Origin: a virus
Taxonomy: Duplodnaviria; Caudoviricetes
IMG/VR virus record: IMGVR_UViG_3300020421_000016
Location: 1-59,226 of that record
Strand: one strand, 5' to 3'
Length of the DNA: 59,226 nt
The notes under the pieces are model-generated. The model ran no database searches. It was not told the origin of the DNA and was given only the letters and a program-made list of their open reading frames with translations. How positions within the stretch are numbered: the stretch's first letter is position 1; each line of letters opens with the position of its first letter. The position numbers and the translations under genes are program-made. Positions 1,552-43,716 of the stretch are shown here, piece after piece.

Positions 1552-3216
1552 CTAAGTATGTGTAATATTTGATGGTGTACCATAATAGCATCTTATAGTT
1601 AATGTACTATGACTATAACTACCACTTCCATAATTTTCATCTATATGTAATCTTCCATTTGGACTACCACTACCACCGCTATGGTCAGTTGCACTAATAC
1701 TTAAACCTATGGACCAGGTATTACCACTGTCATGATAAGGTGTCCAAGTGTGAGTAGTATGGTTGTTTGCCCACTTACCCTTAATAAATCTGTGAATATC
1801 TGATCCACCATTTGTTTGGTGACTTGTATAAGTAACATCTGCCATAAAATAACTTGCACAGTACAAGTATGTGTCATGATCTGAATTACCACCCCAAGTA
1901 TATTGATATTCTGTATATGCTGGAGTTTGTTTAACTATACCGCCACCAAATCCTGTACCACTATTTTGAAATGTTTGGTCACTGTCTAATCTAATTGCAC
2001 CATCTATATGTAAATGGCGTGCTGGACTTGTAACATTAATACCAACATTGCCGTTGTCCATTAATGTCATCCTTGCATCGGATAGTGTAGCTTCACTACT
2101 ATCATTATTTGAATCCATTAAAAAATGGAATTTGCCTCTGGAATAACCTTGGTTTATTCCTTCTGCTACAATAGCCATTTTATTCCTACTACCATATCCT
2201 TCAGGATCAAACCCAATTCCAGCTGCATAAGATGCTACGTGGCTTGATCCACCGACACTAATTGGATAATGAACACTAGAGGCATCTGTGGACGATTCTC
2301 TTACTTGTAATTTTTGTTGTGGACCTGAAGTACCAATACCAACATTACCATCATATCGAACTGTAAACAAATCTCCTAGATAATTTGTACCACTAGTCAT
2401 TTCTCCTACACCAAAAAGTGAACCAGTTGAACTTGCGTCTGCTGGCCCAAATGCTCTTACACCATACTCGTTTGAAATGCTAAACCCTGTTCTTGAATTG
2501 CCATTTTGTCTAAGCAATAATACTTGTGCACCGGTATTGGTAACTCCAAAATCTAAAGGTGCTTGTGGATCTAACTCATTAATACCAACTTTATTATTTC
2601 GTATAACTAGATTACTAGCACCACTGCCGCCCATATGTATGCCATCAGTATGATAAGATGTTATTAAAAGTTTCCTATTAGCATCAGCTTCGATTCTGTG
2701 GTTAGTACCGTCCCATAAGCCTAAATTTAATTGAGCTGAACCGTCTATTAATTTAATTCTACTAGTGTTAAGAGAACCATTTAATTCTAATCCTACTGTA
2801 GCATCAATACCATCACCAATACCAACACCATTATCTGATACTCTCATACGTTCTGCACTGCCAGTAGCAAAGCGTATATCTGTAGCTCGCATGCCCATTG
2901 CAACATTGGCACTACCTGCTGTGTTCATTGCTTGAAATCCTGCTACATTTCCAATTTCGCCTATACCACCTTGAAAGGCTATTCGCTTGTCAGTGCCAAT
3001 TCTAATATCTACACCATTATCTCCGCCTTCAAAAATAACATCTTCTGTAAAAGTTGTTACTGTGTTGCTGGTTACAACATTGTTTACATCTAGTGTTGTT
3101 GCGGAACCAGTGCTGGTTATAACTTTGCTTAAATCAATAGTAGTACTACCAGCGGCATCTGGTGCTACTAGATCTATATATCCGCTTACATCGCCTTTGA
3201 TTCTTAAATCTGCCAT
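1552..3216 (-). CDS. Tail fibre protein
   Basis: Repeated shaft motifs (ERMRVSDNGVGIG, GNVGIGTSGP, GNVGINVTSP). Start placed at 3216 (MADLRIKG) because it forms a TAATG overlap with the upstream stop. Confidence 0.75.
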   Translation of the reverse strand: MADLRIKGDVSGYIDLVAPDAAGSTTIDLSKVITSTGSATTLDVNNVVTSNTVTTFTEDVIFEGGDNGVDIRIGTDKRIAFQGGIGEIGNVAGFQAMNTAGSANVAMGMRATDIRFATGSAERMRVSDNGVGIGDGIDATVGLELNGSLNTSRIKLIDGSAQLNLGLWDGTNHRIEADANRKLLITSYHTDGIHMGGSGASNLVIRNNKVGINELDPQAPLDFGVTNTGAQVLLLRQNGNSRTGFSISNEYGVRAFGPADASSTGSLFGVGEMTSGTNYLGDLFTVRYDGNVGIGTSGPQQKLQVRESSTDASSVHYPISVGGSSHVASYAAGIGFDPEGYGSRNKMAIVAEGINQGYSRGKFHFLMDSNNDSSEATLSDARMTLMDNGNVGINVTSPARHLHIDGAIRLDSDQTFQNSGTGFGGGIVKQTPAYTEYQYTWGGNSDHDTYLYCASYFMADVTYTSHQTNGGSDIHRFIKGKWANNHTTHTWTPYHDSGNTWSIGLSISATDHSGGSGSPNGRLHIDENYGSGSYSHSTLTIRCYYGTPSNITHT

Positions 3217-5441
3217 TATACTATTACCCACCTGCTTCCACTACTTATAGTGACTGTTGCACCACTGTCAATTGTTACTGGACCTGCAGCCATTGCACTA
3301 TCACCAACAGCAATAGTGTAGTTTTCTGTTACTGTTTGACTGTTTACAAAAAACGGTTGTGATGTACGTACTCTGGTTGTTACTAAATCTCCGGTCATAG
3401 TATCGCCAGTTTTACTTACCTTTGTTGCAATATTATTTGCAGTTGTTGTTGCAAAATTAGGATCGTCTCCCAATGCCGCAGCCAACTCGTTTAAAGTATC
3501 AAGTGTTGTTGGCGCACTATCAGTAATAGTTGCAATAATATTTGTAGCAGTATCATATCCGTTATTTGATAGATATGTACCTACATCACTGTTTGTATAG
3601 CCTGGTTGTCCGTCTAATGTAAGTGTTCCTGCTACTGCATCATAAGTTGCTGTAATATTATTTCCACCTACAATTAAATTATCTACATCTGCATCAGTAT
3701 AACCAGGTTGTCCATCTAGTGTCAATGTACCAGCTGCATCGTCATAAGTTGCTGTAATGTTGTTGCCACCTACTACTAAACTGGCTACACGGTCATCTAC
3801 ACGTTCATTTGTTAAAAATAAATTTGTTGTACCTTCTGTTAAGTCATCACTGTTGCTTGCACCTGCTTGTTGCCAAGCAGTGCCGTCCCAAATATAAAGG
3901 ATGTTATTGTCTGTAGCAAACGCCTGGTCTCCTGCGTTATTACCAGTAAGTGGCAAATATGTACTGTCGTCATATACATTAACCTTAGCAACTACAGTGC
4001 TACCATCTTCCACAACTAATTCTGCTGTACCAGCAACTTCTCTAATCTTGTTTTCGAACGAAGGTGTATTCTCTACATAAGTTGCTAAGTCCTGTGGTAC
4101 AAACTTATTTGTTCCTGCATCATATACAAGACACATCTGATTAACTAATGATGGGATAGGACGTATCTCTACTGGAGTCTTGTGTCCTTCTTGTGTATGC
4201 TGGAAGTATACTACATAGTTACCGTTATTATTTGTCTCAACTGCAAGGTCCTTGATAGTAATTGCACCACGCATGCTACTATGATTACCACATTGGTAAT
4301 ATAATGTATCTGGTGCATTACTTGGTACTACAAAAGTAACATTGCCACTATCTGATCTTGAACCTGTAACACCAGTTGTGTACTCTCCAAAGTAAGTACC
4401 TGCGCTATAATTTGTTCCGTTGTCTGTTGTTAGGTAGAACGGGTGTCCACTTGCATTGACACTAAACGTATATGTACCACCTCTATATACAGGTCCTAAG
4501 TTTGGATTATCTCCACTTGCTGGACCACTAAAAGTGTAAGCACCATTTGCATTGTTTGTTACAGTGTATGTAACACTTGGATTAGTTAGGGTTGGTGGTG
4601 TAACAGTTGCCGGTACATTAACACTTATACGTTGTACATTTGTTGCAGTTCCGCCGTTAATACTAGGATGTGTGTCACTAATAGGATTACTAGGATTATC
4701 TGTTGCCCAACTTACAAGGTTGTCCGTTCCTGAACCATCTACCCATTTCAAATACAAACTATGTGTTTGAGTCATGTTGCCATGAGTTGTGTAAGCCGCA
4801 AAGTTATTAACTGTATATGTTCCTTGTTTATATAAAGGAACACTTACTTCCGGCGAATTTGTAATAGTTCTACGTGCATAAGGAAGTGTGCTTTGCTCCC
4901 ATGTCCATAGCCAGGCTGTGTCTTGTCCAGCCGCTGGAGCATCAACTTGTATTTCTAGTGTTTCTGGTGCAATACTTAAATTAACGTCAGGAATATTATC
5001 CTGTGTAATTTGTCTAGTGCCTAGTTGTATACTACTGCCACTTAAATATAGATCTCTAAATTTATAGGTACTGCTTCCTAAATCATACGCAACGTCTGTA
5101 TCTGGTATAATATCACCACTTACATTGCCCAATTTAGTTTGTACACGGGCATCAGTATAATAAAGGTTGTTTGTACCCTCAGTAATTTCATCTGTGTTGT
5201 CAACGCCTTGTACTGCGCTGTCTACATACGATTCAGTTGCATAACTGTTTGTTGTGAGATAGGTGTTTACACGAGCATCTGTGTAAAATTTATTAGTACC
5301 TTCTATTAAGGTATCAGTATCAATAGTAGTACTATTGATAATACTTTTCCATGCACCGCTGGTGCTGTCATAAAACCAGCGACGGCCTTTTTCATTATGA
5401 ATGTCGCCATTGGTAGGGGTAGTTGGAAAGTTTACTGCCAT
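3216..5441 (-). CDS. Virion fibre/structural protein with cupredoxin-like domain
   Basis: 741 aa with MAVNFPTTP N-terminus, TDxLTEGTxNLYYTDAR repeats, APTTLDTLNELAAALGDDPNFATT fibre motif and GHPFYL...YYQCGNHSSM. Confidence 0.75.
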   Translation of the reverse strand: MAVNFPTTPTNGDIHNEKGRRWFYDSTSGAWKSIINSTTIDTDTLIEGTNKFYTDARVNTYLTTNSYATESYVDSAVQGVDNTDEITEGTNNLYYTDARVQTKLGNVSGDIIPDTDVAYDLGSSTYKFRDLYLSGSSIQLGTRQITQDNIPDVNLSIAPETLEIQVDAPAAGQDTAWLWTWEQSTLPYARRTITNSPEVSVPLYKQGTYTVNNFAAYTTHGNMTQTHSLYLKWVDGSGTDNLVSWATDNPSNPISDTHPSINGGTATNVQRISVNVPATVTPPTLTNPSVTYTVTNNANGAYTFSGPASGDNPNLGPVYRGGTYTFSVNASGHPFYLTTDNGTNYSAGTYFGEYTTGVTGSRSDSGNVTFVVPSNAPDTLYYQCGNHSSMRGAITIKDLAVETNNNGNYVVYFQHTQEGHKTPVEIRPIPSLVNQMCLVYDAGTNKFVPQDLATYVENTPSFENKIREVAGTAELVVEDGSTVVAKVNVYDDSTYLPLTGNNAGDQAFATDNNILYIWDGTAWQQAGASNSDDLTEGTTNLFLTNERVDDRVASLVVGGNNITATYDDAAGTLTLDGQPGYTDADVDNLIVGGNNITATYDAVAGTLTLDGQPGYTNSDVGTYLSNNGYDTATNIIATITDSAPTTLDTLNELAAALGDDPNFATTTANNIATKVSKTGDTMTGDLVTTRVRTSQPFFVNSQTVTENYTIAVGDSAMAAGPVTIDSGATVTISSGSRWVIV
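3595..3780 (-). repeat. Intragenic tandem repeat, 102-bp (34-aa) period, 2 copies
   Basis: LxVGGNNITATYDxxAGTLTLDGQPGYT occurs twice. The homologous gene at 12067..16134 has one copy. Confidence 0.8.
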
Positions 5442-6521: not shown

Positions 6522-8156
6522 TTATCTCTTTTCTATTATAGCTATATAAAGCCCATTCCACCACTGCGTGGCATCTTCTACATCATTTATCAGTATTTTT
6601 TCATACCGTAAATATAATCCAGCATCTAGTATACCTTTTTGTGCACCTTGTACAACACCATTAAAGTTGGCATCATCTACAATAATTATTGCTTGGTCAG
6701 CTAATGCATCTTTATAATAATTTATTGCACGACAAGTTGTTTCCGCATCATGTGGACCATCATAAAAGAATAAGTCCACTGGTTCTATTTGACTAACATC
6801 AACATCAAACATATGACTATTAAATAGTTTAATGTCTGCTTGCTCATGTTTGTACTTCTTTATATTTTTTATAAAAACTTCTTTACTGTTGGGAGGTAAC
6901 TGTATGTCGTCTCTAAATGCATCTACATCCTGTGCCCAGTTATCTACAAAGTATGCTTTAACTGGATTTTTAACTACTGCGCATCCTGTTGCACCCAAAT
7001 AGCAACCAACTTCTAAATAACTATCAACATGTCTAGTTAAGTAGTTTAGAAAACGCTGTACACGTTTACTAGTCAACCCTGGTACTTGATATATTTTTAA
7101 GTCGGGCTCGTTAACACTATCAGCTAATCCATTTACAATTAAATCTTCGATGTTGTCAACATGTTCACCATTTTTTGCTGTGTAAAGTTTATCACATTTA
7201 TTACAATCCCAACAATCAAATTTACAGTTTTTAATAAACTGACGCCAAGCATTAATGGGTTTGCCTTGTAAGTTTGTATTTTCCAAATAAGGATTAAAAT
7301 CGTCAAACAGTATTTCCTGATTACGTTTATATCTATCTATAATACTGATTGTGTTTGCTGTTTGTTCAACACTTTCTCTACCATGCATTTTAAATATATC
7401 AACATATTCTAATAGTTCTACCCAATCTTCTCGCCATGGTGGAATGTTTGCAGTTTTTAATGCTGTACTGGGATCAGTAATATCCCATTTGGGACAACTT
7501 ATTCTACTAATGGGATCCGTAAAGTATTGAGAACCAGCTACTCGATTATTATTAAACTCAAAGTGTTCTGACATTACAGGACACCCTCCCAAGCATCCTT
7601 CATTTGCTAACAGAGCAATCTTAATACCATATTTTTCTTTGACACGTTTAATTTTTTTAAGTGTGTCACGATCACGCATTAAGTCTCTGTCTATATTAAT
7701 GTAATGAAATCCTGCTTCCGCTTGCTTTGCAATATCGCTGGCTGTGTTGACTTCTCTAAGTATTGTATTTTTAATTTGTAACTCTGGAAATGCTTTTTGT
7801 ATTTGACCAGTCATTACCCAGTGGGTATGTGGTATAGTAGCACTGCGTATACCTCTACTATACAAAGGTGCAAACTGTGTAATCCAAGTATCTAAATTTT
7901 TCTGTGTTGGTGGTACAGTAGTGTTGTTAAATGTCGCACTTAATTGTACTCCGGTTTCTTTCTGGAGTATTAGCGCATTTTCAATTAAGTCTCCTATATC
8001 ATTTACAAATAAGTCGCCCATTGCATCTTGTAAAAAAGGTGCGATACGACATGTAAAATACACATCATATATTAGATCACGATGATCCTTTATGAATTTT
8101 ACTAAGACATTAAATTGATTCTGGTTTAATTTTGGGTTTAGCGGAATGCTGAACAT
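6522..8156 (-). CDS. Fusion: peptidase-U32-like (Fe-S) domain plus class I SAM-dependent methyltransferase (Methyltransf_24-like)
   Basis: N-terminal part has INIDRDLMRD, LLANEGCLGGCP, DIFKMHGRE (U32 FKIEGR-like) and CKFDCWDCNKC. C-terminal part has YLEVGCYLGAT, DLFFYDGPH and IIIVDD. Confidence 0.7.
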   Translation of the reverse strand: MFSIPLNPKLNQNQFNVLVKFIKDHRDLIYDVYFTCRIAPFLQDAMGDLFVNDIGDLIENALILQKETGVQLSATFNNTTVPPTQKNLDTWITQFAPLYSRGIRSATIPHTHWVMTGQIQKAFPELQIKNTILREVNTASDIAKQAEAGFHYINIDRDLMRDRDTLKKIKRVKEKYGIKIALLANEGCLGGCPVMSEHFEFNNNRVAGSQYFTDPISRISCPKWDITDPSTALKTANIPPWREDWVELLEYVDIFKMHGRESVEQTANTISIIDRYKRNQEILFDDFNPYLENTNLQGKPINAWRQFIKNCKFDCWDCNKCDKLYTAKNGEHVDNIEDLIVNGLADSVNEPDLKIYQVPGLTSKRVQRFLNYLTRHVDSYLEVGCYLGATGCAVVKNPVKAYFVDNWAQDVDAFRDDIQLPPNSKEVFIKNIKKYKHEQADIKLFNSHMFDVDVSQIEPVDLFFYDGPHDAETTCRAINYYKDALADQAIIIVDDANFNGVVQGAQKGILDAGLYLRYEKILINDVEDATQWWNGLYIAIIEKR

Positions 8157-8910
8157 CGTTAATTAATTCTTCTACCATTAGTTTATCAGTGACATTTGGA
8201 ATATCATACTTGGGAAGGTTATTTTGTTGTTCTAATAGTCCATTAGAAACTGCTTCTCCAATTTTTGCCATACCTTCACTTAAACGTTGTGTATATTGTA
8301 GTGTACGAGCAAGTGTTGCAACTTGTGCTTCGTCATCCATCATAGCAATGCTATCTAAATTACCAGTTCCAATTCTGCCTGAACTCATCATATCCATTGC
8401 GGCTTGTTTTGACATACGTGCAATCCAATATTCACGTTCTTCTTCTTCATCATAACCATATGCTTTTTGCAATAGCGTATTGTCGTCTTTTGCAATCTCT
8501 TTAGCTAATTCCATAAACGTAACAACTTCTTCAGCAGCTTGTTTAATTTTTCGATCCCAAACATCAATATCATGTTGCATTGATTCAATGTCTACTAAAA
8601 TTAATTCTTTCTCCAGTTCTTCATCTGTTTCATCATGTCGCTTTTGTGCAATTTTAATTTCAACTCTTTTACGTTTGAGTTTATTTTTCATATCAAAATA
8701 ACTCTGATGTCTTGCTTCTAGTTCCAGCAAGCATTGTTTTAACATTCGATATGGTGTCAATTGACTATTTGCAACGAAAAATTTACTTTGAAATGTACTC
8801 TGTCCACTGTTTAAATTTAACGCACCAGATAGTATTTCTTTTTCTTTTTCATTAAAATTAAAGTTATTTTCAAAGTCAGAGTCTGGTTTAATTACTGGGT
8901 ATTCTTCCAT
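8110..8910 (-). CDS. Hypothetical coiled-coil protein
   Basis: 266 aa with an E/K-rich helical core. Strong SD (AGGAGG) upstream at about 8915-8921. Confidence 0.7.
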   Translation of the reverse strand: MEEYPVIKPDSDFENNFNFNEKEKEILSGALNLNSGQSTFQSKFFVANSQLTPYRMLKQCLLELEARHQSYFDMKNKLKRKRVEIKIAQKRHDETDEELEKELILVDIESMQHDIDVWDRKIKQAAEEVVTFMELAKEIAKDDNTLLQKAYGYDEEEEREYWIARMSKQAAMDMMSSGRIGTGNLDSIAMMDDEAQVATLARTLQYTQRLSEGMAKIGEAVSNGLLEQQNNLPKYDIPNVTDKLMVEELINDVQHSAKPKIKPESI

Positions 8911-34051: not shown

Positions 34052-34101
34052 TTGCTTTACTCCTCAATGATGACACAGCAATAATGTTACAAAGTCAATG
34101 A

Positions 34102-34108
34102 TATTTAG
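34102..34108 (-). promoter_or_regulatory. Putative late promoter variant (CTAAATA)
   Basis: TAAATA core upstream of the core-gp21-gp22-gp23 block. Confidence 0.5.
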
Positions 34109-34192
34109 TAACCAAAGCATTTTACTATGAAAAAAGCATAGAAAAATGCAAAAAGTGGTGTTTTTATGAACTGACCACTGTGCTAAGTATTC

Positions 34193-39715: not shown

Positions 39716-40555
39716 ATGAGCGAAAATCCACTAAAGCATTTATATAGAAGTAAAACAGTATATGTAGAACTTCCAAGTAAAGGAAAATTTTATAAAAAGC
39801 CGCCAAAATTTTCAGTAGACGGAGAAATAGGTGTAATGCCTATGACTACTAATGACGAGCTAAAGTTAAAAAGTCCAGATGCATTATTTAACGGTGAGGC
39901 TATGTTTGATATGCTATCAAGTTGTGTACCAGACATTGAAAATCCACGTGAAATACCTGCATGTGATTTAGATGTATTGGTATTTGCAATACGTATTGCA
40001 ACATCTGGAGATGAAATGGAAATAAGCAGTGAATGTCCTCACTGTGAAAAAACACATGAATATGAAGTAAATCTAACACGGTTTATGGCAAGTGCTAAAG
40101 AAATGGAATTGGATCCTACTGTGCAAATAGACGAAAACACTACTGTACATGTAAGACCCTATAGTTTAGAAAGCAGAATGAAAACACAAATCCAACAATT
40201 TCATGCTTACAGAATGGAAAGTATGTTAAATGGAGGAGATATTTCTCAAGATCGTAAAGTAGAATTATTTAATGATGCACTAGCGGCGGCTAGCAGTATA
40301 AGTGTAGAACTTGTAGCATCAAACATTACAAAAGTCGAACTTAAATCTGGAGAAGATGTTACTGCCGTAGAAGAGTACGATCACATATATCAATGGGTTA
40401 TGAATATGGATAGCAACACATACAAAAAAATTATTGGCCATATCCGTAAACTAAGTGATGCTAATATAGAAAAAGAAGTTGTATTAAACTGTGCTGGATG
40501 TAATAAAGAATATCGTAGCGATATAGATTTGGATCCCACAAATTTTTTCACATGA
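39716..40555 (+). CDS. gp26: Baseplate hub assembly protein (gp26-like)
   Basis: VELPSKG, PMTTNDE, DLDVLVFAIRIATSG, two CxxC motifs (CPHC, CAGC) and a C-terminal NFF. Confidence 0.85.
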   Translation: MSENPLKHLYRSKTVYVELPSKGKFYKKPPKFSVDGEIGVMPMTTNDELKLKSPDALFNGEAMFDMLSSCVPDIENPREIPACDLDVLVFAIRIATSGDEMEISSECPHCEKTHEYEVNLTRFMASAKEMELDPTVQIDENTTVHVRPYSLESRMKTQIQQFHAYRMESMLNGGDISQDRKVELFNDALAAASSISVELVASNITKVELKSGEDVTAVEEYDHIYQWVMNMDSNTYKKIIGHIRKLSDANIEKEVVLNCAGCNKEYRSDIDLDPTNFFT

Positions 40556-40782
40556 GGGCAATTAGAATGACTCCTCAAGAATTGCAGGAGTATACTAAAA
40601 AACTAGTTGCCCAGCAAAAGAATTATCAAAATATTATATTAGAAACAGTTGCTTATAGTAACGGAAGTCTATCATATAACGAAGCATTACAAATGTCAAG
40701 TAGTGCATTTAACCAATTCGAAAAGACACTTGTTAAAAAGATTAAACAGGATAAAGGAATATCTGAATCCAATATGTTATAA
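40552..40782 (+). CDS. Baseplate assembly protein, gp51-like
   Basis: 76 aa with an ATGA overlap with gp26 and LSYNEALQMS motif. Synteny matches gp26-gp51. Confidence 0.55.
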   Translation: MRAIRMTPQELQEYTKKLVAQQKNYQNIILETVAYSNGSLSYNEALQMSSSAFNQFEKTLVKKIKQDKGISESNML

Positions 40783-40789
40783 TCTTGTT

Positions 40790-41203
40790 TACGTTGTCTA
40801 ACGACAACGGATTTATTCATTTCATTCATAAATCATTTATTATTATTAGAAGTAATTATCTTTAGCTTTACCATGATGTCAGTCACACTTAGCCTGATTA
40901 AGGCCAAGTGCATCTGAAAAACTTTACCAGTCAATCGCGCCACACTACATATCGAAAAACCTTTATAACGTAAGGTAAGGGCGGTTGTGCGGTACCCTTT
41001 TACATTCTGCTTACAACGCAGGAACACAGATGGCCATATGTAGCGACCCATCTGCTACCCGTGAGTTCCAATAGTCAGGAGAGCTCACTCATTTTGGTTT
41101 GTCAAACCAACGTATAGACTGCAACACACCACGCCATCGACATCAGCTCACACTGGCAGAATCTTGGTGAGTCGAGAATCCCCGACCAATCAAAGTTGCT
41201 ATA
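40790..41203 (-). ncRNA. Putative large structured non-coding RNA (about 400 nt) directly 3' of the GIY-YIG gene
   Basis: Longest intergenic gap in the window and visibly more GC-rich than other gaps. It holds many stems (40886-40910, 40959-40976, 40977-40999, 41005-41024, 41027-41054, 41061-41088, 41094-41110, 41164-41189) and a 10-bp loop pairing 41036-41045 with 40943-40952. G-U wobbles favour the minus strand. Confidence 0.65.
40792..40809. terminator. Hairpin at the convergence of gp51-like and the structured region
   Basis: CGTTGTC-TAAC-GACAACG perfect 7-bp stem. There is no strong U-tract, so a terminator role is uncertain. Confidence 0.4.
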
Positions 41204-41665
41204 TTATTTGGAGTTTATATTAGCCTGAGTTTTGCGGTGCTCTAATAGACGTTCTCTTAATATATTACTGCCTCCAACTCTTACGTTGATAATGCCATTG
41301 TAATATTCGTCTGTTTCCAGCACACTGCGATCAAATTGTTCTTTTGCTTCTAAGTAACTGAGTTCGCCTTTGCTTTCACAATAATAAAGTATTTGCCTTG
41401 TAAAATTGTTTTCGCCTAATTCTTCTACATCTCTGTTTAGTTTATCACTTGAGCCCCAATAGGTGCGCCAATCACTTTCTTTAGTGCTTCGTCTTTTGTT
41501 CTTTTTGCCTTTTAGAGGTTTTTTTGTAACTTTAAATCTTGCTAATTTTTTGCCTATATATTTTCTATCATTCGTCAGATTGGTAATTATGTAGACAAAT
41601 CCTACACAAGTTTCCGGAAGTTCTTCAACTTTTATTCCGTTATAAGTCCAATCACTTTTTGCCAC
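41204..41665 (-). CDS. Small GIY-YIG endonuclease-domain protein
   Basis: GFVYIITNLTNDRKYIGKK, YWGSS, LSYLEAKEQ (catalytic Glu position) and YYNG (conserved Asn). Confidence 0.85.
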   Translation of the reverse strand: MAKSDWTYNGIKVEELPETCVGFVYIITNLTNDRKYIGKKLARFKVTKKPLKGKKNKRRSTKESDWRTYWGSSDKLNRDVEELGENNFTRQILYYCESKGELSYLEAKEQFDRSVLETDEYYNGIINVRVGGSNILRERLLEHRKTQANINSK

Positions 41666-41954
41666 GTTTGCTCATTTTCTCCAATGTATGTATACCAATA
41701 TTGCTGATATTATCTATTTTTCTATGGCCTGTGTATCTTTGCCTAATAGTTTTGTCGCTTGGTCTTTCATATATTGAAGTTAAATCGCTTGAATCAATTA
41801 TTCCACTATCCACAATCCATTTGTAACTATCATTTTTAACAGAGACGTCATAGCCGTCCCAATTAGTTACTTTAGATTCGGGTACTTTTAATGTAACACC
41901 CGTATCAGGATCTGTCAATGTGATTGTTACACGTTCATTTTTATTCTTCGACAT
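41652..41954 (-). CDS. Hypothetical protein
   Basis: ORF between gp46 and GIY-YIG. ATG at 41954 (MSKNKNE) chosen over the upstream start that lies deeper inside gp46. Confidence 0.55.
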   Translation of the reverse strand: MSKNKNERVTITLTDPDTGVTLKVPESKVTNWDGYDVSVKNDSYKWIVDSGIIDSSDLTSIYERPSDKTIRQRYTGHRKIDNISNIGIHTLEKMSKRGKK

Positions 41955-43716
41955 AATCTGTATCTGCGTTAAACGTAGTAAAACCATTCTCTTTTAGTAC
42001 TTGCAGAGTATGACTAACTCGTCCTACAAGTTCGTCTCTGTGACTAATTAAGAAAATGTTTTTATCTCTTTCACGTACCATTTTCTTTAGTACGCTCAAC
42101 GATGATTCTACACCGTTGCTATCCATGCCTGAGTCTACTAATTCATCTATTGCCAAAAAGTTTATAGGAGTGTTCATGCTTTCGAACACATCTCTAAAGG
42201 ACCAAGATAAGCCAAGGATAAGCCTGTTACGTTCGCCGCGAGATAAGTTGTCAAAGTCTAGTTCCCTACCCAGCTCTGTGATTTCAACAGTCAAGTCGGG
42301 TTGGAATTGTACTTCATGTGGTAAGCCTAGTTTAGTTAAGTAATAGCCTAGTCGTGTATTTAAGTATGATAAGTTTTGTTCTATAATTCGCTTTCTAATA
42401 AAGCTGTCTTTATTAGTTAGCAGTTTCATAAGAAAATCCTGGTGTTCACGTAGAAGATTTAGCTGATTCATATTTTCCCAACTGATCTCCTGAATACCTT
42501 CGTTTTGTAATGCCTCTATTTGATCTGTGTAAGGGTCCTGTTCAGCCTCTTTAGTTTCCAATTGTGTTTTTAATTGCACCACTTTGTTTCTGTGATCGTG
42601 CGCATCGCTCACATTTTCGTAAAAAGTTACTGGTGCTGTGCCTAAGTCTCCAAGTGCATCCAAATTTATTTCATGCTCTTGTAGCTGTGTAAGATTTTCT
42701 TGCAGTGTTGTTTCAGCATCTGCTTTTAAATCTTGTTTTGTTTTGAGAATTTCTTCTTGCTTATCGTCATGTATATCCTGACCACAAGCATGACACTTGT
42801 TATCAACTAATAATGCGATTTCTTTTCCTAGCTTCTCGACTAGCTTGTCTTGTTTTACATTATCCTTTCGGATAGTACTAATGTTATCTTCTAGCTGTGT
42901 TCTACGTTGTAAGTTTACATGGAATACTGCCAAGTCTCCATGTGTAGATAGTTCAGCTTCGATATCTAAATGTTCTAGTTCACAAATTGCTTCATCGAAC
43001 GCTACAATGTCTGCAGATTTTTTATCTTCCCAAACTTTACGTCTGCGTTCTAAGTCTTTAATACTTTTTGCAATTGTTGAATTTGCTTCTTCTACACCCT
43101 TGATGCGATATTCTTCTTCTTTTATTGCATCTTTTGTGTCTTTCATTTGTTCTTTAAGTACGTTTGCTTTTTCACTAAGCATTGTGATACCCAGCAATTG
43201 CTCAATAATATCACGTTGATCATTTGCTCGCATACTAAGGAACGGTTCTGTGTAAGTGTTCAGTGCCATAATATGTTTAAACATAACGTGGCTCATACCC
43301 AACAGGCGTTCTATTTCCTGCTGAGTAAGGCGTCCTTCGCCTTGTCCTTCATCAGTACCGTCTTCCAACATTTCATTATTGTTTACCATAAATTTAAAAA
43401 TGTTAGGTTTACGTCCTCTTTCAATTCTGTACTCTATTCCGTTAACTTCAAAGTCAACTGTAACCAACATACCTTTGTTGTTGGTTTTGTTTATTAAGTT
43501 ATCCTTGCGGATATTTGTTAGTGCATTGCCATACAGTGCATAGCTAAGTGCATTAATTATTGTAGTTTTGCCAGTACCATTACGGCTACCGTCTCCGCCC
43601 AAATCTACATTGTTTCCTAGTACAAGTGTAAGTCCTGCATCAGTAAAACGCACGGCTTGCGTTACGTTACCCACACTCATAAAGTTTTTTATGGTTACGT
43701 TGTTAATATTAATCAT
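41941..43716 (-). CDS. gp46: Recombination endonuclease ATPase subunit (gp46, Rad50/SbcC-like)
   Basis: NFMSVGN, Walker A NGTGKTT, zinc hook CHACGQ, signature LSRGE, Walker B AIDE and ISH. Confidence 0.95.
   Translation of the reverse strand: MININNVTIKNFMSVGNVTQAVRFTDAGLTLVLGNNVDLGGDGSRNGTGKTTIINALSYALYGNALTNIRKDNLINKTNNKGMLVTVDFEVNGIEYRIERGRKPNIFKFMVNNNEMLEDGTDEGQGEGRLTQQEIERLLGMSHVMFKHIMALNTYTEPFLSMRANDQRDIIEQLLGITMLSEKANVLKEQMKDTKDAIKEEEYRIKGVEEANSTIAKSIKDLERRRKVWEDKKSADIVAFDEAICELEHLDIEAELSTHGDLAVFHVNLQRRTQLEDNISTIRKDNVKQDKLVEKLGKEIALLVDNKCHACGQDIHDDKQEEILKTKQDLKADAETTLQENLTQLQEHEINLDALGDLGTAPVTFYENVSDAHDHRNKVVQLKTQLETKEAEQDPYTDQIEALQNEGIQEISWENMNQLNLLREHQDFLMKLLTNKDSFIRKRIIEQNLSYLNTRLGYYLTKLGLPHEVQFQPDLTVEITELGRELDFDNLSRGERNRLILGLSWSFRDVFESMNTPINFLAIDELVDSGMDSNGVESSLSVLKKMVRERDKNIFLISHRDELVGRVSHTLQVLKENGFTTFNADTDYVEE

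What the first reader, a model, noticed from the sequence alone, without database searches (positions are those of the whole stretch)
40790..41665. Minimal GIY-YIG nuclease gene followed immediately by a ~400-nt pseudoknotted RNA: candidate nuclease-RNA (RNP) system
Seen: other intergenic gaps in this window are about 140 nt or less and AT-rich, but about 420 nt of GC-richer non-coding DNA begins at the GIY-YIG stop. On the minus strand it forms consecutive stems: GCAAC/GTTGC enclosing TTGGT/ACCAA, TTGGTTT/AAACCAA, GTGAG/CTCAC, CAGATGG/CCATCTG, CTGC/GCAG, AAGGG/CCCTT, ACCTT/AAGGT and CACTTGGCCT/AGGCTAAGTG. The loop CGCTACATAT (41045-41036) is complementary over 10 bp to ATATGTAGTG (40952-40943), giving a long-range pseudoknot. 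In this pairing and in the 40886-40910 stem the imperfect pair is G-U on the minus strand but A-C on the plus strand, which points to a minus-strand RNA co-transcribed with the nuclease. TGGTAAAG is repeated on both sides of the last large stem. Known: HEARO/omega RNAs with IscB and reRNA with TnpB set a precedent for nuclease ORF plus adjacent structured RNA. Inference: this may be an undescribed GIY-YIG-associated ncRNA acting as guide/scaffold, ribozyme, or replication/recombination RNA linked to gp46/47.
Basis: partly seen in the sequence, partly recalled or inferred. Interest (0 to 1): 0.85.

Follow-up and report, generated by a model that had tools for sequence, protein, structure and literature searches.

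The report
Large pseudoknotted phage RNA beside nuclease gene
The non-coding stretch after the small GIY-YIG nuclease gene encodes a real, large, doubly knotted RNA of unknown function that is widespread in uncultured marine giant phages, but it keeps its place whichever nuclease gene sits before it, so it is probably not that nuclease's guide.

Summary
Window 40783-41203 (minus strand) is the only long non-coding stretch in the window. It is GC-richer than its surroundings and encodes a structured RNA. A covariance model of its 262-nt core (40861-41122) found 107 of 120 motif-selected viral loci. On 69 distinct sequences, 44 of 67 pairs show compensatory changes. A second loop-loop contact (GUUG/CAAC) covaries too. 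G-U pairs fix the strand as minus.

The window gives no Rfam match. In a sister clade, and in three small Burkholderiales genomes, the same core follows Rfam's orphan Polynucleobacter-1 motif (RF01718).

The RNP reading is not supported:
- The RNA always lies between the gp46-nuclease unit and the converging baseplate genes.
- The nuclease is GIY-YIG in some phages and an unrelated PDDEXK_15 enzyme in others.
- RNAs up to 82% identical follow either nuclease.
- GIY-YIG genes in other contexts lack the RNA, and the bacterial RNA copies lack a nuclease.
- One clade carries its own sigma-70-type promoter.

Best reading: an independent, new, large ncRNA family of unknown function.

The parts
41204..41665 (-). 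GIY-YIG nuclease gene, 153 aa, catalytic domain only
   Evidence: Pfam PF19835 SegE_GIY-YIG, E 7.8e-35, residues 6-126 on profile positions 1-123 of 123. PHROG 447 and homing-endonuclease PHROGs. Weak TIGR01453 match.
41121..41203 (-). Variable 5' domain of the RNA: closing helix GCAAC/GUUGC, hairpin 41170-41187, CACC/GGUG helix and an inner hairpin
   Evidence: Alignment A4. Hairpin 41170-41187 has 7 pairs, with double changes in 4. The domain is shared with type-2 and type-3 relatives.
40861..41122 (-). Conserved core modelled as R1 (264 positions, 56 nested pairs)
   Evidence: The core scores 289 bits against its own model. 89.4% of cells are paired, 35 of 56 pairs show double changes, and 0 of 500 shuffles reach the observed value.
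41094..41110 (-). Hairpin UUGGUUU-GAC-AAACCAA
   Evidence: Helix 2. All 6 pairs show double changes. It is absent or short in some clades (68% of cells paired).
41061..41088 (-). Hairpin GUGAG...CUCAC with inner UCC/GGA and the conserved GCUCU internal loop
   Evidence: Helices 3 and 4: 100% paired, 6 of 8 pairs with double changes.
41021..41060 (-). Long hairpin whose terminal loop (41036-41044) forms pseudoknot 1
   Evidence: Helices 5-8; loop pairing.
41007..41021 (-). Hairpin CUGC-GUUGUAA-GCAG. Loop GUUG (41014-41017) kisses the loop of the next hairpin
   Evidence: GUUG/CAAC 24, GUUA/UAAC 21, GUUU/AAAC 11, GUCU/AGAC 8, GUUG/UAAC 4. helix 11: 100% paired.
40977..40999 (-). Hairpin AAGGG...CCCUU with a near-invariant loop. 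CAAC (40984-40987) is the kissing partner
   Evidence: Helix 12.
40959..40976 (-). Hairpin ACCUU/AAGGU, variable in length
   Evidence: Helix 11: 5 of 5 pairs with double changes, 71% of cells paired.
40943..40952 (-). 3' strand of pseudoknot 1 (AUAUGUAGUG)
40920..40932 (-). Small variable hairpin carrying copy 1 of the covarying motif (UGGUAAAG, 40922-40929), followed by a U run
   Evidence: hairpin read by eye from the rows.
40880..40916 (-). Long conserved terminal helix CAG-A-UGCACUUGGCC...GGCUAAGUGUG-A-CUG
   Evidence: Helix 12 (14 pairs, 7 with double changes).
40866..40873 (-). Copy 2 of the covarying motif, single-stranded, 3' of the terminal helix
40792..40809 (.). Terminator-like hairpin at the convergent junction. 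Its T-rich tail serves the plus-strand baseplate genes
   Evidence: Equivalent hairpins occur in relatives (by eye).
41652..41987 (-). 111-aa ORF of no known family between gp46 and the nuclease gene
   Evidence: Conserved only in the window's close clade.
41941..43716 (-). gp46-like Rad50/SbcC recombination nuclease subunit, heading the same-strand unit
   Evidence: 49% identity to the jumbo phages PA5oct and Phosso.
39716..40782 (+). Converging baseplate-hub gene (279 aa) and a 76-aa ORF
   Evidence: Pfam PF12322 and PHROG 150. This is the conserved downstream neighbour.

Best explanation
The stretch is the gene of a self-contained, large structured non-coding RNA. It has three parts: a variable 5' domain, a 262-nt core locked by a loop-to-strand pseudoknot and a loop-loop kiss, and an A/U-rich tail that runs to the convergent terminator.

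The RNA is a fixed feature of one locus in a lineage of uncultured marine giant myoviruses: the end of the gp47-gp46-nuclease unit, facing the baseplate-hub genes. In the window it abuts the GIY-YIG stop codon, so it is most likely made as the 3' part of that transcript. This is inferred. In a sister clade it has its own near-consensus sigma-70 promoter.

Its adjacency to GIY-YIG reflects conserved gene order, not a specific partnership.

Inferred mechanism: it acts in trans as a folded RNA, either a protein- or RNA-binding scaffold or a catalytic RNA. The near-invariant unpaired nucleotides would form the active surface. The twin covarying 7-8-nt motif, shown once in a hairpin and once in the 3' tail, would be a base-pairing specificity element for an unknown target.

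Shown: the fold, the strand, family membership, the locus, and independence from the nuclease type. Inferred: transcript ends, action in trans, and the role of the twin motif.
For: - Covariation: 44 of 67 pairs show double changes, 88.8% of cells are paired, and 0 of 500 shuffles reach the observed value. The pseudoknot is kept in 69 of 69 sequences, in 28 versions. The kissing loops occur in 4 Watson-Crick versions.
- Family size: 107 of 120 motif-selected viral loci are members.
- Locus: gp46 lies upstream on the same strand and the hub gene downstream on the opposite strand.
- Nuclease exchange: GIY-YIG or PDDEXK_15 upstream. All four nuclease-by-RNA-type combinations occur. There is 82% RNA identity across the exchange.
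- Own promoter: TTGACA-N17-TATAAT-like in 10 of 67 loci, with the hexamers kept while the spacers vary.
- Bacterial copies: the core follows RF01718 in 3 of 151 sampled Burkholderiales genomes, plus 1 weak case. It lies beside a DUF6641 gene, and in one locus an integrase fragment, with no nuclease homologue.
- Expression hint: contigs from RNA libraries of three studies cover the RNA region.
Against: - Every RNA locus with enough upstream sequence has a nuclease gene directly 5' on the same strand: 82 of 82 (76 GIY-YIG, 6 PDDEXK_15), with 4 more not assessable. Gene order may explain this, but it would also fit a functional link.
- Both nucleases are catalytic-domain-only proteins.
- No function is shown.
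- Transcript ends are unknown. The RNA-library contigs may be DNA carry-over, and they also cover the GIY-YIG gene.
- No partner for the twin motif was found.
- The A3 alignment was fitted to the nested model, so nested-pair counts lean towards it. The two tertiary pairings were not in the model.
Confidence: 0.6

Rival explanations
1. Nuclease-RNA RNP. The RNA scaffolds or guides the catalytic-only nuclease encoded just upstream, and the twin motif or another segment gives target specificity.
For: - 82 of 82 assessable RNA loci have a nuclease gene directly upstream on the same strand.
- Both nucleases lack a DNA-binding domain.
- The RNA starts at the stop codon.
- The layout resembles TnpB with its reRNA (recalled).
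Against: - Two unrelated folds occupy the slot before near-identical RNAs, and all four combinations occur. Known guide RNAs co-evolve tightly with their protein (recalled).
- GIY-YIG homologues of 70-80% identity work in other contexts without the RNA.
- The bacterial RNA copies lack a nuclease nearby.
- One clade transcribes the RNA from its own promoter.
- There is no long hypervariable segment.
Confidence: 0.07
2. Homing-endonuclease hot spot. The RNA gene is an independent conserved gene. The GIY-YIG and PDDEXK_15 genes are free-standing mobile endonuclease genes that repeatedly lodge beside it, perhaps cutting nuclease-less alleles near or in the RNA gene. This reading is compatible with the best explanation.
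For: - The GIY-YIG family occurs in at least three contexts and in both orientations.
- GIY-YIG identity of 72-80% exceeds that of gp46 (58-67%) in the same loci, as after recent spread.
- The nuclease was replaced cleanly between the upstream ORF and the RNA 5' end in L183 compared with the window.
- Hits to homing-endonuclease families.
Against: - No nuclease-free allele was seen among 82 assessable loci. Homing genes are usually sporadic.
- The proteins lack the DNA-binding domains of Seg and I-TevI enzymes.
- High conservation could equally mean an essential enzyme of the gp46/47 recombination module.
Confidence: 0.2
3. Cis-acting element: a 3' UTR structure that stabilises or tunes the gp46-nuclease mRNA. 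The bacterial copies would instead act as a 5' leader regulating the downstream gene, as first guessed for Polynucleobacter-1.
For: - The RNA abuts the stop codon in the window clade.
- Bacterial copies lie 70-190 nt upstream of a same-strand ORF.
- The table row for Polynucleobacter-1 in PMC2864571 marks it as a likely cis-regulator.
Against: - In the phage loci examined, and in the window, the next recognised gene is the converging hub gene, with no same-strand gene in between.
- The downstream bacterial ORFs looked unrelated by eye (not compared by a tool).
- One phage clade has its own promoter.
- A 400-nt doubly knotted fold is far more than a 3' stabiliser needs.
Confidence: 0.1
4. Replication-origin or primer RNA. 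The folded transcript forms a persistent hybrid in the A/T-rich stretch downstream and primes DNA synthesis, as ColE1 RNA II or the phage T4 origin transcripts do.
For: - An A/T-rich tract follows the core.
- The locus joins recombination and baseplate genes, as T4 ori(uvsY) does (recalled).
- The RNA occurs both in phages and in bacterial loci, one of them with an integrase fragment.
Against: - There is no direct evidence.
- The A/T-rich tract is explained as the T-tail of the converging terminator.
- The cumulative GC-skew turn at this point only mirrors the change of gene strand.
Confidence: 0.06

Closest known systems
Polynucleobacter-1 RNA motif (Rfam RF01718; Weinberg et al. 2010, PMC2864571, one table row seen)
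   Same: In a sister clade (L128, L129, L144, L148, L160, L163, L167, L186, L200, L201, L353-L355), and in small Burkholderiales genomes, this 141-nt motif lies directly 5' of a homologue of the window's core. The known motif is therefore one 5' domain of the same large RNA family.
   Different: The window's own 5' domain gives no RF01718 match, even at E up to 10. The 262-nt core with its two tertiary pairings is not in Rfam. The phage copies are not 5' leaders.
IscB with HEARO/omega RNA, and TnpB with reRNA (recalled)
   Same: A small nuclease gene sits next to a pseudoknotted RNA of 200-400 nt. The RNA begins at the 3' end of the ORF, as in TnpB.
   Different: There is no RuvC or HNH protein, no HEARO match, no transposon ends and no variable guide. 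The RNA stays while the nuclease fold changes.
GOLLD and ROOL large ornate RNAs of phages and prophages (recalled; both in Rfam)
   Same: Large, modular, phage-borne RNA of unknown function, with a variable half and a conserved half.
   Different: No sequence or model match. It is smaller, and it holds a fixed syntenic position beside recombination genes.
Free-standing GIY-YIG homing endonucleases of T4 (SegA-G), and I-TevI in group I introns (PMC2988022, search listing only; otherwise recalled)
   Same: The catalytic domain matches SegE_GIY-YIG, and the gene lies between conserved phage genes.
   Different: The protein has 153 aa and no C-terminal DNA-binding domain. The adjacent RNA is not a group I intron: there is no Rfam match and no flanking exons.

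Membership tests
Any Rfam 15 family (window RNA) | Covariance-model match at or near the gathering score | tested here: not met
   Nothing reaches gathering. The best E-values (0.29-6.8) are eukaryotic snoRNA and RT-17 noise outside the core.
Polynucleobacter-1 (RF01718) | Match of 37 bits or more to the 141-position model | tested here: not met
   The window has no hit at E up to 10. Relatives and bacterial copies score 38-82 bits, directly 5' of the shared core.
R1 core family (defined here) | Full-length match to model R1 on the nuclease strand, with pseudoknot 1 and the GUUG/CAAC-type kiss | tested here: met
   Window 40861-41122, 289 bits (it is a seed sequence). Both tertiary pairings are present.
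IscB/TnpB-type guide RNA | RNA scaffold co-evolving with one nuclease family | tested here: not met
   two unrelated nucleases, four combinations, and 82% RNA identity across the swap.
IscB/TnpB-type guide RNA | Hypervariable guide segment of about 15 nt or more at one end | tested here: not met
   Alignments A1-A3. The variable parts are structured hairpins. Only a 7-8-nt twin motif covaries.
Group I intron with a GIY-YIG homing gene | Intron core match and a split host gene on both sides | tested here: not met
   No Intron_gpI hit. No same-strand ORF lies downstream before the converging genes.
SegE-like GIY-YIG nuclease domain | Pfam PF19835 over its cut-off | tested here: met
   E 7.8e-35, 120 bits against a cut-off of 25.
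Seg/I-TevI-type homing endonuclease (full architecture) | C-terminal DNA-binding domain after the catalytic domain | tested here: not met
   The protein has 153 aa, and the catalytic profile covers residues 6-126. TIGR01453 matches only profile positions 2-86 of 215, below its cut-off.
Seg/I-TevI-type homing endonuclease (full architecture) | Site-specific cleavage and sporadic presence among close relatives | not testable with these tools
   Cleavage needs a bench assay. No empty allele was seen in 82 assessable loci.
Type III toxin-antitoxin RNA | Tandem RNA repeats upstream of an endoribonuclease toxin | tested here: not met
   The RNA lies downstream and is not a tandem array. The neighbour is a DNA-nuclease family.

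The most novel reading that the evidence does not exclude
The RNA is a fold-agnostic targeting or licensing cofactor. Whichever catalytic-only nuclease is encoded upstream (GIY-YIG or PDDEXK_15) would be recruited to nucleic acid chosen by the RNA's twin covarying 7-8-nt motif. That would be an RNA-directed nuclease system unrelated to the Cas, IscB and TnpB lineages. It would explain why no RNA locus with enough upstream sequence lacks an upstream nuclease gene (82 of 82).
Probability: 0.06. Interest if true: 0.95.

Novelty: new member of a known kind. Interest (0 to 1): 0.62.

Why it matters
Large RNAs with several covarying tertiary contacts are rare, and they have repeatedly turned out to be ribozymes, RNP scaffolds or RNA-only assemblies.

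This family has well over a hundred members in uncultured marine giant phages. It sits at a fixed place beside the Mre11/Rad50-like recombination genes.

It turns an orphan Rfam motif from 2010 (Polynucleobacter-1) into one module of a roughly 400-nt RNA. If such strains can be grown, there is a system in which to test it.

The result also removes a tempting but probably wrong candidate for a GIY-YIG RNA-guided nuclease. It leaves one sharp residual question: why does a catalytic-only nuclease gene always come first?

Tried and rejected
- Known RNA families: tRNA/tmRNA scan of the whole window found none. Rfam on the window and on 35 relative loci gave only RF01718, and only in one clade.
- Decayed ORF: rejected.
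- Thermodynamic strand call: the z-scores are alike on both strands.
- Isolate phages: blastn with three family members found only the GIY-YIG gene of the Melnitz phages. PA5oct and Phosso, the nearest isolates by gp46, show no GIY-YIG, no PDDEXK_15 and no credible R1 match; the best is 12.6 bits in a hairpin-rich PA5oct spacer.
- Cellular genomes: 120 motif matches, 0 of them real by profile HMM.
- Internal partner for the twin motif: none consistent. The motif is not enriched in the window: 4 matches against 3 expected. A link to the -35 hexamer of the L021-clade promoter was rejected by eye.
- Alternative pairing of the hairpin's 5' strand with copy 2 of the motif: fits some clades but not others (by eye).
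- Expression: the runs are Logan contigs, so they give no ends, strand or level. Contigs of three studies break at 40908-40927, which I do not interpret.
- Literature: four full-text searches found no description of this RNA or of a GIY-YIG-linked RNA. PMC10690425 and the 2026 preprint 10.64898/2026.09.22.753630 were read only as passages. Their supplements, and those of PMC2864571, are closed and might list this motif.
- Relatives of a virus record cannot be drawn.

Full report
**What is there.** The window is a 59-kb IMG/VR virus record rated about 16% complete. Its gp46-like protein is nearest (49% identity) to those of the jumbo phages PA5oct, Phosso and Atu_ph07.

On the minus strand the order is gp47-like, gp46-like (41941-43716), a 111-aa ORF, and a 153-aa GIY-YIG protein (41204-41665). 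The GIY-YIG protein matches Pfam SegE_GIY-YIG at E 7.8e-35 and consists of the catalytic domain only. Then come 421 nt without a credible gene (40783-41203). Beyond that lie the converging plus-strand genes for a 76-aa protein and a T4-type baseplate hub protein.

The stretch reaches 46-49% GC against 30-35% around it. It is the only long gap in the window.

**Is it an RNA?** Single-sequence folding does not decide: z is -3.4 on the minus strand and -3.7 on the plus strand. Comparison does.
- Homologues of the GIY-YIG protein in viral contigs (594 of 600 candidate stretches, best 80 kept) carry the same non-coding element downstream in 15 loci by nhmmer. Compensatory changes are visible by eye.
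- I built a covariance model, R1, of the 262-nt core, 40861-41122.
Of these, 107 match R1 at 57-292 bits (87 of 100, 20 of 20).
- On 69 distinct sequences, 89.4% of cells pair and 35 of 56 nested pairs show changes on both sides. No shuffle in 500 reaches this, and sliding the partners by one to three columns drops pairing to 31-51%.
- The alignment was fitted to the model, so nested-pair counts lean towards it. The two tertiary pairings below were not in the model.

**Tertiary pairings and strand.**
It is kept in 69 of 69 sequences as at least 6 contiguous pairs (mean 9.1) in 28 distinct versions, for example CGCCGUAUCU/AGAUACGGUG and UGCCUCCUAU/AUAGGAGGUG. The cross-sequence control mean is 5.6. 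All 7 columns show double changes.
- I found a second contact. GUUG in the loop of the CUGC/GCAG hairpin (41014-41017) pairs with CAAC in the loop of the AAGGG/CCCUU hairpin (40984-40987). It covaries as GUUA/UAAC, GUUU/AAAC and GUCU/AGAC, and is paired in every sequence that has letters there.
- Near-invariant G-U pairs, which would be A-C on the other strand, fix the RNA on the minus strand. Opposite-strand model hits are only partial and weak.
- The 72-aa ORF inside the stretch stays open in only 6 of 69 relatives.

**Ends.**
- The 5' domain (41121-41203) starts within a few bases of the stop codon. In some relatives the stop lies inside the conserved CAUAGC (by eye).
- The 5' domain is structured and shared with other RNA forms.
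- The terminator-like hairpin at 40792-40809 has its T-tail on the plus strand. This explains the conserved GAAAUGA-like run as its complement.
- In the L021 clade, a promoter follows the GIY-YIG stop about 250-290 nt before the core. It reads TTGACA, a 17-nt spacer that varies, then TATTAT, TATAAT or TATATT. It occurs in 10 of 67 loci.
- Contigs from RNA libraries of three studies cover the RNA region. This is a weak hint only: they are contigs, DNA carry-over is possible, and one also covers the GIY-YIG gene.

**Relation to the nuclease.**
- Among 86 distinct RNA sequences, 76 have GIY-YIG directly upstream on the same strand. Six have an unrelated 170-178-aa protein, Pfam PDDEXK_15 (E 5e-27). 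Four have too little upstream sequence, and none has an empty slot. Part of this set was seeded with GIY-YIG, but the 120 motif-derived loci were not.
- A search seeded with the PDDEXK_15 protein gave 80 loci, mostly in the same gp46-to-hub setting. Of these, 32 carry an R1-family RNA, 16 carry a second form (type-2), and 32 have neither by my two profiles.
- I read 8 of those 32. Seven show a third form by eye, sharing the 5' domain and the UGCGUUG and CAACCG motifs. The eighth (L353) carries RF01718.
- Of the first 80 GIY-YIG loci, 31 carry the R1 family (including distant forms found by chaining), 20 carry type-2, 6 are too short, and 23 have neither. In 22 of those 23, the gene is in another context or in the opposite orientation.
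- So all four nuclease-by-RNA combinations exist. RNAs after PDDEXK_15 are up to 82% identical over 339 nt to RNAs after GIY-YIG, and this holds in several RNA clades.
- The GIY-YIG homologue of phage Melnitz sits beside ribonucleotide reductase genes with only about 150 nt downstream.

**A known relative.**
- In one clade, the domain 5' of the core is Rfam's Polynucleobacter-1 motif, RF01718, at 38-69 bits against a gathering score of 37.
- In a sample of 151 Burkholderiales genomes, three small genomes (1.8-1.9 Mb) have RF01718 over its cut-off, and one has a weak match. In all four, an R1 match follows directly on the same strand: 50.7-60.8 bits, and 21 bits for the weak case.
- There the RNA lies divergent from a DUF6641 gene and upstream of ORFs that look unrelated by eye. 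One locus also has an integrase fragment. No GIY-YIG or PDDEXK_15 homologue lies in the held flanks.
- The 2010 paper lists the motif only in a table row, as a likely cis-regulator from Burkholderiales and fresh-water or estuary samples. Its supplement is closed.

**Unexplained.** A 7-8-nt, mostly GNRA-like motif stands once in the small hairpin before the long terminal helix and again about 6-12 nt after that helix. The two copies change together across the family: UGGUAAAG, GGCAAGUU, UGUCAAG, UGCCAAG, UGUGAAGU, GGGUAAU, GGGGAAUA, GGAAAAU. The mean shared run is 6.7 nt, against 5.1 when copies are paired across sequences. No internal complement exists. Type-2 RNAs show an analogous twin (ACAUGAAG, ACAUAAUG, ACAUGAUG) by eye.

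**Verdict.** The stretch encodes a new member of the class of large phage-borne structured RNAs. It is related to the orphan Polynucleobacter-1 motif RNAs, and its function is unknown.

A specific GIY-YIG RNP is unlikely (about 0.07). The constant presence of some catalytic-only nuclease gene upstream remains unexplained. Conserved gene order, or a homing-gene hot spot, are the simpler readings.

Noticed in passing
L030:3488-3725, L053, L058, L080, L081 and others (alignment A5): A second conserved non-coding form, 'type-2', follows GIY-YIG or PDDEXK_15 in 20 + 16 loci. It shares the window-type 5' domain but has a different 3' body (GAUGUCGACGUAGGUUGGGAAAGGUCAGAGCCC ... GGUUCCGUCUGAC). Rfam gives no match.
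   Followed up: partly
L378, L389, L391, L397, L387, L392, L400, about 3010-3700: A third form, 'type-3', follows PDDEXK_15. It has the shared 5' hairpin plus CUCC...GGAG, and UGCGUUGCC pairing with GGCAACCG. Seen by eye only.
   Followed up: no
L003:3700-3930, L016, L018, L026, L055, L058, L080: An extra upstream module (CACAUAAGGUUGGCGGGCCAG ... CCGCUGUGGAAAAA ... ACACGUA) precedes either R1 or type-2 cores. The RNA is therefore built from interchangeable modules.
   Followed up: no
L405:1796-2263, L406:1466-1966, L408:1806-2240: In the small Burkholderiales genomes, the RF01718-plus-core RNA is always divergent from a DUF6641 gene (40% identity among the three). L405 also has a phage-integrase fragment at 1-291.
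   Followed up: partly
L005:3001-3585; L036, L039, L040: In these loci the GIY-YIG reading frame runs on for 188-194 aa into the first part of the RNA region. The stop codon is lost or shifted.
   Followed up: no
L203 (PA5oct) 7868-8530: A 663-nt gene-free spacer near the hub gene folds far better than shuffles (z -9.1) through several perfect hairpins. It has only a 12.6-bit R1 match.
   Followed up: partly
L021:3430-3590 and clade: Between the clade's own promoter and the RNA 5' domain lies a conserved A/T-rich leader (UAAUAAUUAAAGCAUCAGAUAAUUAAUAGU) of unknown role.
   Followed up: no
L035, L042, L049, L051, L065, L074, L075, L079; L369-L375, L401-L404: In some phages, either nuclease gene lies between hub and gp46 but co-oriented with the hub gene. 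No RNA of the profiled forms was found there.
   Followed up: partly
window 34052-34192: This is the only other gap of 100 nt or more in the window (141 nt, GC 0.31).
   Followed up: no
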